A stretch of DNA of 64,000 nucleotides, taken from the NCBI RefSeq assembly GCF_016026235.1, contig NZ_CP065614.1. One strand, given 5' to 3'. How positions within the stretch are numbered: position 1 is the first letter of the stretch; each line of letters begins with the position of its first letter. Positions 60,001-63,000 of this stretch are shown in pieces. The DNA is from Escherichia coli. Its GTDB lineage: Bacteria > Pseudomonadota > Gammaproteobacteria > Enterobacterales > Enterobacteriaceae. Made by a program: the position numbers.

Positions 60001-63000
60001 ACTGTTTTTCCCTGTAATATTCGAACTTTTAATTCTCAAACAATATTTCATACTTCCATTATCACTTTCATGCATTATTAGTTCATTGGTTATTTCAATA
60101 ATAATTCGTATATATGGACGGATCTTTTCTGTATCATGTTTTTCAGATATCCCTTTTGTTAGAGAACACCGCATTAAGTTAATTATGGCTGGTTTTTTGG
60201 TTTATTTTTGGCTTTTTTCCTTTCTTGTTGGCTGGTATAAACCTCAATTAAAAAAAGAATATCAGATGCTTTGTTATAATAATAGTTGGTATTATGTTCT
60301 TGCTCGTTATGATTCACGGCTCGTTTTGTCTAGTTCATTTAAAGATGACAGTAACAGATTCTTAATATTTAATACAGAACAGTCGGGATTTTATGAAATC
60401 AATGATGTTTATGTCAGAAAGTAATAATCCTCTCCCACAAAGTGAATTAAATGAATATATAATGCGTTCGAAGTATATGTATTGAGCTGTCATACTGAGA
60501 AACAAACCTTAGGGCAGCACAATTAAAGCCAGAAACAACTATGCAAGAAAGTTACTAAATAAGTGCTCGGAACAGTAAAACACTCAGGGGGGACTCAGTC
60601 CAGATTATGTAATCAGATAAATTGCCAAACATCACAAATCACCAGCCGGACTGAGTGATGCCGAGCATTGCACCAATACCCCGTGATGAACGATGCCTGA
60701 TGCAGAAAGCTCCCTATAAAACAAAGAACAAAAACTACGACCGGCGATTCACCGTCATACTGATGCTGCATCGTGGTGACACTGTCTGTCACTTTCATGT
60801 TGACTGAACAACTCTGCTGCGAAGAAGGTGTACCGCCGGCGGGATTTGATTGTCCGGCGTCTAGCTTCCACTTCCCTGATGGAACTGAAAGTTGTTATGG
60901 CCGGTCAGCTTGCCCTGTCCGCAGGACATGAGGTGCTGTGACGGACAGCACCAGTAACGGAAAGTGACAATGAAAATGAATACTGCGCTGATAGTTGCAC
61001 TAATGTGTATGTGGTATGCGGTACCCGCTGCTGCAAAAGAGACTTTACTGGCTATGCCACGTAATTCAACAGAACATTGCTATGCGGAGATTAATGTGCA
61101 CGGACCATATGGGGTGTATTTCCGAGTGGTCCCGCATCCCCCCGGGGGAAAGAGCTGGGTCGAATGTAACAGTGACTACTATTACTCTGATAAACCACCG
61201 GGAGTACAGATACTCGGAACCCGTGCAGGGTGTCGGGTATACGGAATCTGCGGGACCACCTCGACACTGCATGTGGCTGGAAGAGGGGTTGTGTGTATTA
61301 AAAATATATGCAGTCCACGTGGGATGATAATTCACAGGATACGGAAACGTCCTGTAGTGGCTGTAAGCGATGAGATGTGATCTTACCCAGCAATAGTGGA
61401 CACGCGGCTAAGTGAGTAAACTCTCAGTCAGAGGTGACTCACATGACAAAAACAGTATCAACCAGCAAAAAAACACGTAAACAGCATTCGCCTGAATTTT
61501 GCAGTGAAGCCCTGAAGCTTGCTGAACGCATCGGTGTTGCTGCCGCAGCCCGTGAACTCAGCCTGTATGAATCTCAGCTCTATGCGTGGCGCAGCAAACT
61601 GCAGCAACAGATGACCTCGTCTGAGCGTGAAAGTGAACTGGCCGCTGAAAATGCCCGCCTGAAGCGGCAACTGGCGGAGCAGGCAGAGGAACTGGCTATC
61701 CTCCAAAAGGCCGCGACATACTTTGCGAAGCGCCTGAAATGAAGTATGTCTTTATTGAAAAACATCAGGCTGAGTTCAGCATCAAGGCAATGTGCCGCGT
61801 GCTCCGGGTGGCCCGCAGCGGCTGGTATACGTGGTGTCAGCGGCGGACAGGGATAAGCCCTCGTCAGCAGTTCCGTCAGCACTGCGACAGCGTTGTCCTC
61901 GCGGCGGCCTTTACCCGGTCAAAACAGCGTTACGGTGCACCACGCCTGACGGATGAACTGCGTGCTCAGGGTTACCACTTTAACGTAAAAACCGTGGCGG
62001 CAAGCCTGCGCCGTCAGGGGCTGAGGGCAAAGGCCTCCCGGAAGTTCAGCCCGGTCAGTTACCGCGCACATGGCCTGAGGTGTACTGGCAATAGCGGACA
62101 CCACCATTTGTTCTTTTTCTAAGCAGTCATCTGATAATATTTTATCCTGAAGGCTGCCGGGGAGATATTCCCCAGACGAGAGTGACGACGCTGACGATTG
62201 TAGAAAATCTCAATGTATTCCCGTATTACTGAGATGGCCTCATCCCGGCTCTTAAAACGATAGTGGCTCAGGCTTTCATTTTTCAGCGTTCCCCAGAAGC
62301 TTTCCATCGGAGCGTTGTCGTAACAGTTTGAGGTAGCCTGAGTTTAACGGACACTCCTTCCTGAAATAGAATGGCATCAGAAGGAGCCAATAATGAGCAG
62401 AAAAACCCAACGTTACTCTACGGAGTTTAAAGCCGAAGCCGTCAAAACGGTTCCTGAAAATCAGCTTTCGATCAGTGAAGGCGCTTCCCGATTATCTGTT
62501 CCTGAAGGCACTTTAGGACAATGGGTTACCGCCGCAAGAAAAGGGCTCAATACACCAGGCTCCCGCACAGTGGCTGAGCTGGAATCTGAAGTTATGCAAC
62601 TGCGTAAGGCTTTAAATGAAGCACGACTTGAGCGAGATATATTAAAAAAAGCAACAGCGTATTTTGCCCAGGAGTCGCTGAAAAATACGCGTTAGTCGAA
62701 CAATGGCGACAACAATTCCCTGTTGAAGCGATGTGTCGGGTACCTGGTGTATCCAGGAGCGGTTATTACGACCGGGTACAGCATGCCCCCTCAGACAGAA
62801 AACAAAGTGATGAGCGGCTAAAACTGGAGATTAAGGTGGCACATATCCGCACTCGCGAAACATATGGAACCCGGCGGCTCCAGACGGAGCTGGCAGATAA
62901 CGGAATTATCGTCGGTCGTGACAGACTGGCACGTCTTCGTAAGGAGCTGAGGTTGCACTGTAAGCAGAAACGCAAGTTCAGGGCGACCACAAGCTCTGAC

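What the first reader, a model, noticed from the sequence alone, without database searches (positions are those of the whole stretch)
60964..61380. Secreted cysteine-rich small protein whose stop codon is supplied by the IS3 left end
The ORF has a clear signal peptide and eight cysteines, and its TGA coincides with the first three bases of the IS3 IRL, so the native C-terminus has probably been lost. It is flanked upstream by an IS630 remnant and I cannot place it in a known family; it could be a toxin subunit, lectin or immunity protein.
Basis: seen in the sequence. Interest (0 to 1): 0.35.

Follow-up and report, generated by a model that had tools for sequence, protein, structure and literature searches.

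The report
IS3-truncated orphan secreted-protein gene remnant
This is a small orphan gene on the Shigella/EIEC invasion plasmid, with an export signal, whose end was cut off by an IS3 insertion sequence; it is transcribed along with the virulence genes but looks like a decaying leftover rather than a toxin, lectin or immunity protein.

Summary
A 136-codon ORF (ATG 60970; alternative starts at 60964 and 60976) has a canonical Sec signal peptide. Its TGA (61378-61380) is the first three bases of the IS3 left inverted repeat. It has 7 cysteines, 6 of them in the mature part, not 8.

The window is the pINV virulence plasmid. The ORF is the annotated hypothetical protein CP0167 / pWR501_0176 / WP_011114759.1. 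It occurs in 115 Shigella/EIEC plasmids, and every allele examined keeps the IS3 junction.

No family, solved structure or intact homologue turned up in Pfam, NCBIfam, PHROGs, PDB, a 5.8-billion-protein word search, an HMMER scan of 1.84 billion representatives, or motif scans of genome and metagenome contigs.

The only relative is an unannotated, heavily decayed syntenic copy on one E. fergusonii plasmid. It lies downstream of a fimbrial-locus gene whose 3' end also survives just upstream of the pINV ORF. That copy stays open for 23 codons past the junction, so a lost C-terminus is plausible.

Within pINV, all 7 SNPs seen are nonsynonymous. Frameshift, stop-loss and signal-peptide-loss alleles exist. 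Published TraDIS shows no phenotype, yet RNA over the ORF responds to temperature, VirF and oxygen/FNR.

Most likely this is a transcribed but defunct relic. Interest is low.

The parts
60970..61377 (+). Coding part of the orphan ORF, 136 codons (CP0167 / pWR501_0176 / WP_011114759.1). Alternative starts are GTG 60964 and ATG 60976.
   Evidence: ORF list. PGAP annotation of identical plasmids. Prokka and RAST calls in M90T. No family found.
60970..61035 (+). Predicted Sec (type I) signal peptide, MKMNTALIVALMCMWYAVPAAA, with cleavage after AAA.
   Evidence: Read directly from the sequence. A heuristic passes it with about a 1.4% false-positive rate on shuffled ORFs. Not tested experimentally.
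60959..60964 (+). Weak Shine-Dalgarno-like GGAAAG, 5 nt before ATG 60970.
   Evidence: Sequence. The start region ACAATGAAAAT is conserved in the E. fergusonii copy, which has GAAGG upstream.
61378..61380 (+). TGA stop codon, which is bases 1-3 of the IS3 left inverted repeat.
   Evidence: Alignment of four independent IS3 insertions: invariant sequence starts at this TGATC.
61378..62077 (+). 5' fragment of an IS3 element (about positions 1-700 of 1258; left inverted repeat, orfA, start of orfB), cut off on the right by other IS debris.
   Evidence: blastn against a complete 1258-bp IS3 gives 91% identity over window 61364-62077. PGAP annotates it 'IS3 family transposase, frameshifted, incomplete'. 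No IS3 right end is present in the window.
60807..60941 (+). 3' end (44 codons plus stop) of a gene related to a 203-aa hypothetical protein (WP_242460772.1) that sits in plasmid fimbrial loci. It is truncated at the 5' side.
   Evidence: tblastn: 26/43 identical, E = 1e-11. Differences by codon position are 16/6/19, a coding signature with p = 0.03. Family members lie next to FaeA/PapI-type regulators and chaperone-usher genes.
60658..60786 (+). N-terminal remnant of an IS630-family transposase gene.
   Evidence: PGAP pseudogene annotation in the identical plasmid. Called 'IS630 family transposase, pseudo' (EKN05_024575) in M90T. Window 60550-60746 is deleted in EIEC strain RMDEC465.
61138..61148 (+). 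C6G5 homopolymer tract inside the ORF; a frameshift hot spot.
   Evidence: A 1-nt or 2-nt deletion here in 3 of 8 pINV variants compared. Frameshifted products of 116-118 aa also occur in short-read assemblies.

Best explanation
The ORF is the surviving 5' part, roughly 85%, of a small orphan gene for a Sec-exported protein predicted (at low confidence) to be all-beta. The gene arrived on the ancestor of pINV as part of a plasmid fimbrial or regulatory module, lying immediately downstream of a roughly 200-aa fimbrial-locus gene.

Before the Shigella/EIEC pINV lineages diverged, two things happened. An IS3 inserted in frame near the 3' end, so that its terminal TGA became the stop codon. The upstream partner gene also lost its 5' part; an IS630-family remnant now abuts it.

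The remnant is still transcribed. The transcript probably runs through the AT-rich neighbour CP0168, the IS630 remnant, the ORF and on into IS3, and it follows the temperature/VirF and oxygen/FNR behaviour of the virulence regulon. The ORF is nonetheless drifting neutrally and has no detectable role.

Shown: the IS3 boundary, the distribution, the lack of relatives, the synteny with the E. fergusonii copy, the polymorphism pattern, and the published RNA and TraDIS values.

Inferred: export of the protein, the order of events, the length of the lost tail (about 23 aa), the strand of the RNA, and loss of function.
For: - IS3 boundary at the stop codon.
- All 115 plasmid copies cover residues 1-134. 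All 8 variants aligned continue into the same IS3 sequence. No allele in the 179-member protein cluster ends differently, apart from one stop-loss allele that reads 13 codons into the IS3 left inverted repeat. The insertion therefore predates the pINV radiation.
- Synteny and about 70% DNA identity with E. fergusonii pRHB18-C04_2 across both the upstream gene's 3' end and the ORF. The start region is conserved, and 42 of 103 alignable codons are identical.
- That copy carries many frame-breaking indels, which shows that the locus is dispensable elsewhere.
- Within pINV, all 7 SNPs are nonsynonymous. There are frameshift alleles at the C6G5 tract, one allele with a replaced signal peptide, and one stop-loss allele.
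- No third-codon-position excess between the two copies (difference rates 0.32/0.36/0.40, p = 0.55), whereas the neighbouring gene fragment shows one.
- TraDIS in human enteroids: 17 insertion sites, log2FC 0.13, FDR 0.91. The broth effect of -0.50 is below the authors' cut-off (PMC12283395).
- Many IS pseudogenes on pINV show the same or stronger VirF/temperature induction, so co-regulation is not specific to functional genes.
Against: - The ORF is intact in about 90% of plasmids. pINV diversity is too low (at least 99% identity) for that to show either selection or decay.
- My SNP sample was picked from tblastn hits that differed in protein sequence, so it is biased against synonymous changes.
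- RNA over the ORF is substantial and regulated: log2CPM 7.8; log2FC 2.70 for 37 vs 30 C; 2.87 for wild type vs delta-virF (PMC12283395).
- In a directional RNA-seq/FRT-seq study it is listed among plasmid genes repressed anaerobically (-1.76) and derepressed in delta-fnr (+2.02) (PMC4229854).
- A truncated protein could still be made and could still function.
- One TraDIS model does not cover all niches.
Confidence: 0.5

Rival explanations
1. The truncated ORF is a working gene. It encodes a Shigella/EIEC-specific, Sec-exported small protein expressed with the VirF/VirB virulence regulon. The IS3-supplied stop simply defines its present C-terminus.
For: - Canonical signal peptide and an SD-like site.
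- Present in every pINV lineage searched.
- RNA induced at 37 C and dependent on VirF.
- Listed as differentially expressed in a directional RNA-seq study, with the same oxygen/FNR pattern as T3SS genes.
- A + strand TSS at window 60124, inside CP0168, could feed a sense transcript.
Against: - No sense TSS lies close to the ORF. Four minus-strand TSSs lie in or next to it (window 60855, 60986, 61089, 61406).
- No sigma-70-like promoter on the + strand.
- Whether the 2025 counts were strand-aware is not stated.
- All SNPs seen are nonsynonymous, and frameshift, stop-loss and signal-peptide-loss alleles circulate.
- No TraDIS phenotype.
- Not found in the stored part of the proteome table; that file is truncated, so this is weak evidence.
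- IS pseudogenes share the same regulation.
Confidence: 0.27
2. The ORF was never a gene. It is a chance open frame in the spacer downstream of the fimbrial-locus gene, and the signal-peptide-like start is a coincidence.
For: - No intact homologue anywhere.
- No codon-position signature between the two copies.
- ORFs of this length arise about 3 times per shuffled window.
- Overlapping ORFs of 103 aa and 89 aa in other frames show that the region is stop-poor.
- AlphaFold confidence is low: pLDDT 45-46.
- Only 1 of 6 mature cysteines is conserved.
Against: - Length combined with a signal peptide is expected only about 0.04 times per window.
- The start codon, its context and the SD-like site are the best-conserved part of the alignment with E. 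fergusonii.
- The 28-nt spacing after the upstream stop codon is operon-like.
- In-frame blocks are conserved at protein level, such as YGI.G..(S/L)TLHV and GM.I.RIR.
- Other frames have no family either.
Confidence: 0.18
3. It is a diverged B subunit of an AB5-type toxin, a lectin, or an immunity protein.
For: Only generic features: small, exported, predicted all-beta, with several cysteines.
Against: - No match to any Pfam, NCBIfam, PHROG or PDB sequence.
- Best Foldseek E-value is 0.5, on a low-confidence model.
- No adjacent toxin, A-subunit or nuclease gene. The ancestral neighbours are fimbrial-locus genes.
Confidence: 0.03

Closest known systems
Unannotated decayed copy on Escherichia fergusonii plasmid pRHB18-C04_2 (NZ_CP057682.1; locus L008, about 4147-4543)
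   Same: - Same position, directly downstream of the 203-aa fimbrial-locus gene.
- About 70% DNA identity.
- Conserved start region.
- 42 of 103 alignable codons identical.
   Different: - Riddled with frame-breaking deletions and an in-frame stop.
- Signal peptide destroyed.
- No IS3; the sequence continues 23 codons past the point where IS3 sits in pINV.
- Followed by a FaeA/PapI-type regulator gene.
Other IS-truncated gene remnants of the Shigella virulence plasmid (the pINV 'IS graveyard')
   Same: A gene fragment bounded by IS debris on both sides, kept in all lineages, and transcribed with the VirF-dependent regulon like many annotated IS pseudogenes.
   Different: - Databases annotate it as an intact 'hypothetical protein', not as a pseudogene.
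- The open frame is preserved because the IS3 terminus supplies an in-frame TGA.
The roughly 200-aa hypothetical-protein family found beside FaeA/PapI or PapB-type regulators in plasmid chaperone-usher fimbrial loci (WP_242460772.1, WP_023994140.1, QSA00482.1)
   Same: The 44 codons just upstream of the ORF belong to this family: 60% identity to the E. fergusonii member. This places the ORF's origin in such a locus.
   Different: - The ORF itself is not a member.
- No other family locus examined (E. albertii, Edwardsiella, E. coli, S. Infantis) carries a CP0167-like sequence downstream.
B subunits of AB5 toxins (pertussis-like or subtilase-like)
   Same: Small, Sec-exported, beta-rich, containing disulfide cysteines. 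This is resemblance only, recalled from general knowledge.
   Different: - No sequence or fold match.
- No A-subunit gene nearby.

Membership tests
IS3-interrupted gene | The terminal IS3 inverted repeat (TGATCTTACCC...) abuts the ORF, with the boundary shared by independent IS3 copies. | tested here: met
   Alignment with four independent IS3 insertions: invariant sequence starts at window 61378. 91% identity to a full IS3 over about 700 bp.
IS3-interrupted gene | The remainder of the gene lies beyond the other IS end, with a 3-bp target duplication. | tested here: not met
   IS3 is truncated at about 62077. No IS3 right end is in the window. No tail-like DNA appears in any pINV at blastn sensitivity. 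The 3' part is deleted, so the insertion cannot be reconstructed.
IS3-interrupted gene | An uninterrupted allele or homologue extends past the junction. | tested here: inconclusive
   The only relative is a pseudogene. It is open for 23 more codons in the homologous frame. No empty-site allele occurs among 115 plasmids or 179 cluster members.
Sec-exported protein (type I signal peptide) | Basic n-region, hydrophobic core of 10-15 residues, small residues at -3 and -1. | tested here: met
   MKMNT / ALIVALMCMWYAV / PAAA|KE. The heuristic passes it; background is 1.4% on shuffled ORFs.
Sec-exported protein (type I signal peptide) | Demonstrated export and cleavage. | not testable with these tools
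   Needs PhoA or Bla fusions, or N-terminal proteomics.
AB5 toxin B subunit / lectin / immunity protein | Match to a family profile or to a solved fold. | tested here: not met
   No hits in Pfam, NCBIfam or PHROGs. PDB phmmer best E = 1.3. Foldseek best E = 0.5 on a pLDDT-45 model.
AB5 toxin B subunit / lectin / immunity protein | Adjacent cognate toxin or A-subunit gene. | tested here: not met
   Neighbours are a fimbrial-locus gene fragment, an IS630 remnant, an AT-rich membrane ORF and IS3.
Chaperone-usher fimbrial locus component | Fimbrial subunit, chaperone or usher domain. | tested here: not met
   No Pfam domain in the ORF. Only the ancestral neighbourhood is fimbrial.
VirF/VirB virulence regulon of pINV | RNA level depends on temperature and on VirF. 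| tested here: met
   From published tables, not my own analysis: log2FC 2.70 (37 vs 30 C) and 2.87 (wild type vs delta-virF) (PMC12283395). Anaerobic repression of -1.76 and delta-fnr +2.02 (PMC4229854). The strand is unresolved for the 2025 data set.
VirF/VirB virulence regulon of pINV | Contribution to invasion or colonization. | tested here: not met
   Enteroid TraDIS: log2FC 0.13, z 0.20, FDR 0.91, 17 insertion sites.
Pseudogene / gene remnant | No purifying selection; disabling alleles circulate. | tested here: inconclusive
   7 of 7 SNPs are nonsynonymous, but the sample is biased and small. Frameshift, stop-loss and signal-peptide-loss alleles exist. pINV diversity is too low for a firm dN/dS.

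The most novel reading that the evidence does not exclude
A Shigella/EIEC-restricted orphan protein is exported by Sec and expressed with the T3SS regulon (induced at 37 C, VirF-dependent, oxygen/FNR-responsive). It functions in its IS3-truncated form, for example in the periplasm or at the cell surface during infection, in a niche not sampled by the enteroid TraDIS screen.
Probability: 0.2. Interest if true: 0.45.

Novelty: new member of a known kind. Interest (0 to 1): 0.17.

Why it matters
The practical value is mostly in annotation. A protein carried as an intact 'hypothetical protein' in over a thousand Shigella/EIEC assemblies is in fact an IS3-terminated fragment of an orphan gene. Its only relative is a decayed copy in a fimbrial locus of an E. 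fergusonii plasmid. That adds a small piece to the history of how the pINV backbone was assembled from F/I-type plasmid modules.

If the minority reading is right, and the product is made and exported, it would be an unstudied pINV-specific protein co-regulated with the type III secretion system. Existing stranded RNA-seq, Ribo-seq or proteomics data could test that cheaply.

Tried and rejected
Family and sequence searches:
- Pfam, NCBIfam and PHROGs on the ORF: nothing.
- Pfam on the overlapping ORFs in other frames: nothing.
- PDB sequence search: only a chance ferredoxin match, E = 1.3.
- Word-indexed search of 5.8 billion proteins: only the ORF's own alleles.
- HMMER scan of 1.84 billion representatives: only itself.

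Collection scans:
- The search for related loci on GTDB genomes, using a two-sequence alignment: 21 pattern matches, none confirmed.
- Degenerate motif for YGI.G...TLHV on genome contigs: 14 loci, none related by tblastn.
- The same motif on metagenome contigs: 35 loci, none related by tblastn.

Structure:
- AlphaFold2 without an alignment, full-length and mature forms: pLDDT 46 and 45, all-beta, unusable.
- Foldseek on the mature model: best E = 0.5, meaningless.

Other checks:
- tblastn of the ORF against four other loci of the upstream-gene family (E. albertii, Edwardsiella, E. coli, S. Infantis): no CP0167-like sequence.
- Search for an IS3 right end, to recover the missing 3' part: none in the window.
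- Promoter scan: no + strand site upstream.
- A VirB-box pattern recalled from memory: no match. I do not trust the pattern.

Literature:
- Searches by locus tag (CP0167, WP_/NP_ accessions, orf137) were uninformative.
- I first mis-assigned tag EKN05_24560 in Table S4 of PMC7132871 to this ORF. It is an ISL3 pseudogene, and I dropped that evidence.
- I considered read-through from the mxi-spa operon as the source of the RNA signal. I rejected it because the intervening feature EKN05_024600 is barely expressed and not induced.
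Full report
**What is in the sequence.** The ORF reported at 60964-61380 exists.
- Three in-frame starts are possible: GTG 60964, ATG 60970 and ATG 60976. ATG 60970 follows a weak GGAAAG site and is the start chosen by Prokka, RAST and Logan assemblies. PGAP uses 60976.
- The product begins MKMNTALIVALMCMWYAVPAAA|KE, a textbook type I signal peptide and not a lipobox.
- It has 7 cysteines, one in the signal peptide and six in the 114-residue mature part, not eight.
- The TGA at 61378-61380 is the first three bases of IS3. Aligned with four independent IS3 insertions in E. coli chromosomes, invariant sequence begins exactly at TGATCTTACCC, and everything to the left differs.
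- The IS3 copy is only a 5' fragment of about 700 of 1258 bp. No IS3 right end is present in the window.

**Is it more than chance?** ORF length alone is not. Mononucleotide shuffles of the window give about three ORFs of at least 136 aa. A crude signal-peptide rule accepts the ORF, 8 other real ORFs in the window (among them TraU, TraN and TraH, confirmed), and 1.4% of shuffled ORFs. The combination is therefore expected about 0.04 times per window.

**Where the window comes from.** It is 100% identical to pINV-type plasmid pCFSAN029787_01 of an enteroinvasive E. coli. It carries F-type tra genes and an autotransporter of IcsA size.
- The ORF is CP0167 of pCP301, pWR501_0176 of M90T, and WP_011114759.1, always annotated 'hypothetical protein'.
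- It is in 8 of 5,426 complete E. coli genomes, always on the plasmid, and in 115 PLSDB plasmids: 106 Shigella and 9 Escherichia.
- Its exact sequence was seen on at least 1,000 contigs.
- Every allele examined keeps the IS3 junction. All 115 tblastn matches reach residue 134. Eight aligned variants run on into identical IS3 sequence. The only longer product (147 aa) has the TGA mutated and reads 13 codons into the IS3 inverted repeat.
- The insertion is therefore older than the divergence of the pINV lineages.

**Relatives.** None has an intact gene.
- Pfam, NCBIfam, PHROGs and PDB sequences gave nothing.
- The 5.8-billion-protein word search returned only alleles of the ORF itself.
- The exhaustive HMMER scan of 1.84 billion representatives returned only its own cluster.
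- Pattern scans of GTDB genomes and of metagenome contigs found only unrelated chance matches.
- A sensitive blastn against plasmids did give one informative hit: 72% identity between window 60813-60934, upstream of the ORF, and E. fergusonii plasmid pRHB18-C04_2.

**The ancestral locus.** That stretch is the 3' end of a 203-aa hypothetical gene.
- Window 60807-60941 encodes its last 44 residues at 60% identity. The codon-position pattern of substitutions is typical of coding sequence (16/6/19 differences).
- Members of this roughly 200-aa family sit beside FaeA/PapI or PapB-type regulators and chaperone-usher genes on plasmids of E. fergusonii, E. albertii, Edwardsiella, E. coli and Salmonella Infantis. 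They have no Pfam or NCBIfam assignment.
- In E. fergusonii, the 450 bp after that gene are annotated as empty. They align with the pINV ORF at about 70% identity, starting with a conserved ACAATGAAAAT.
- That copy is wrecked by deletions of 9, 11, 10, 12, 1, 20 and 20 nt and by an in-frame stop. Even so, 42 of 103 alignable codons are identical, including the blocks RNS, AEI.V, YGI.G...TLHV and GM.I.RIR.
- The homology runs up to the point where IS3 sits in pINV. The E. fergusonii sequence then stays open in the same frame for 23 more codons (DTKSETGKLAFTAHSERPQIQRW).
The support is weak, because the comparator is a pseudogene.
- No other locus of the upstream-gene family carries a CP0167-like sequence.

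**Selection.**
- Between the two copies, substitutions are spread almost evenly over codon positions (0.32/0.36/0.40, p = 0.55). Most of the divergence therefore accumulated without coding constraint.
- Within pINV, the eight variants I compared carry 7 SNPs in the ORF, all nonsynonymous. One of them destroys ATG 60970. These variants were picked because their proteins differ, so the sample is biased. The blastn identity list suggests few if any additional silent variants.
- Three of the eight have 1-nt or 2-nt deletions in a C6G5 tract (61138-61148). The resulting 116-118-aa frameshift products also occur in short-read assemblies, so they are not only long-read artefacts.
- Another allele has lost the signal peptide (P0008).

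**Expression and phenotype (published data).**
- dRNA-seq of M90T maps only minus-strand TSSs in and beside the ORF (window 60855, 60986, 61089, and 61406 inside the IS3 inverted repeat). The nearest + strand TSS is 846 nt upstream of the ORF start, inside CP0168 (window 60124) (PMC7132871 Table S3). The consensus scan finds no + strand promoter.
- RNA over the ORF is abundant and regulated: log2CPM 7.8; log2FC 2.70 at 37 vs 30 C; 2.87 for wild type vs delta-virF.
- The flanking features behave much the same: CP0168 at 2.81/2.54 and the IS3 fragment at 2.78/2.92. The IS630 remnant, at 4.39, tops the 37 vs 30 C table (PMC12283395).
- A feature further toward the spa operon is barely expressed, so read-through from mxi-spa is not the source.
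- The library was strand-specific, but the paper does not say whether counting was.
- An older directional RNA-seq/FRT-seq study lists pWR501_0175, pWR501_0176 and pWR501_0177 among plasmid genes repressed without oxygen (-1.76 for this ORF) and derepressed in delta-fnr (+2.02), like T3SS genes (PMC4229854). That favours a sense transcript running CP0168 to ORF to IS3.
- Many IS pseudogenes on pINV show equal or stronger induction. Regulation therefore does not prove function.
- Transposon mutants of the ORF have no phenotype in human enteroids (17 insertion sites, log2FC 0.13, FDR 0.91) and only a sub-threshold shift in broth.
- The protein is not in the stored, truncated part of the proteome table.

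**Structure.** With no alignment available, AlphaFold2 gives pLDDT 46 for the full-length protein and 45 for the mature form. Both are predicted all-beta. Foldseek then gives nothing below E = 0.5. No fold assignment is possible.

**Interpretation.**
- The best reading (0.5) is an IS3-truncated relic of an orphan exported-protein gene. It came with a fimbrial or regulatory module of the ancestral plasmid, is still transcribed as a passenger of VirF-dependent transcription, and is drifting.
- A still-functional truncated exported protein cannot be excluded (0.27), given the regulated RNA.
- A chance ORF that was never a gene (0.18) fits the lack of any intact homologue and of a coding signature. 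It is disfavoured by the signal peptide, the conserved start region and the operon-like spacing.
- The toxin, lectin or immunity idea has no support (0.03).

**Novelty and score.** IS-disrupted remnants are commonplace on pINV, and the ORF is already in the databases as a hypothetical protein. Three things are new here: the recognition that it is IS3-terminated in all lineages, the identification of its only relative, and the identification of the fimbrial-locus gene fragment upstream. Interest is 0.17.

Noticed in passing
window 61358-61377; L003-L006 around position 1500: The 12-20 bp to the left of independent IS3 insertions resemble each other (GTAAGCGATGAGATG, TTAAGCGGTGAAGG, GTAAGCCAGGTGAC, GTACTCGATGAGGTG). 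They also resemble the inner part of the IS3 inverted repeats (CTAAGTGAG; by my recollection of the right-end repeat, also CTAAGCGAG). This made megablast hits start about 15 bp before the element, and it suggests a target preference for IR-like sequence.
   Followed up: partly
window 61138-61148: A C6G5 homopolymer tract inside the ORF carries 1-nt or 2-nt deletions in S. dysenteriae E670/74, S. boydii ATCC 49812 and S. boydii NCTC 9733. Frameshifted 116-118-aa products are also found in short-read assemblies.
   Followed up: partly
window 60550-60746 versus L002 (EIEC RMDEC465 pINV): RMDEC465 lacks this 197-bp stretch, which holds the left part of the IS630-family remnant. It joins the CP0168 downstream region directly to 60747.
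   Followed up: partly
L008 4147-4543 (E. fergusonii pRHB18-C04_2, NZ_CP057682.1): An unannotated decayed homologue of the pINV ORF lies between a 203-aa hypothetical gene and a FaeA/PapI-type regulator gene, next to a PefC-type usher and a fimbrial subunit gene.
   Followed up: yes
window 59708-60424: CP0168 / pWR501_0177 is an AT-rich (32% GC) ORF of 238 aa. It looks like a multi-pass membrane protein and has no Pfam or NCBIfam family. A + strand TSS maps inside it (window 60124), and its RNA is induced at 37 C and by VirF (log2FC 2.81 and 2.54).
   Followed up: partly
window 60658-60786: The IS630-family pseudogene upstream of the ORF is the top-ranked temperature-induced feature of the whole M90T RNA-seq table (log2FC 4.39, FDR 3e-19). 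That is higher than its neighbours. It could reflect the minus-strand TSS at window 60855 or multi-mapping with other IS630 copies.
   Followed up: no
window 61406 (minus strand): A primary TSS mapped in M90T lies inside the IS3 left inverted repeat and points outward, across the ORF in antisense.
   Followed up: no
proteins P0016 and P0008 (alleles of the ORF in S. flexneri assemblies): P0016 has lost the TGA and reads 13 codons into the IS3 inverted repeat (…DEMCSYPAIVDTRLSE). P0008 has a different N-terminus (MMKKPAAAKE…) that removes the hydrophobic core of the signal peptide.
   Followed up: partly
window 1387-16221 (minus strand): A block of F-type conjugation genes is present on this EIEC pINV: TraH, TraN, TraU and TraC by NCBIfam, plus likely TraF and others.
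   Followed up: partly
window 47759-51067 (minus strand): An 1102-aa autotransporter with an AIDA-I-type barrel; by size and context probably IcsA/VirG.
   Followed up: no
window 35954-38866 (+ strand): A 970-aa ORF with a TTG start and no NCBIfam match at E <= 1e-10. Not examined further.
   Followed up: no
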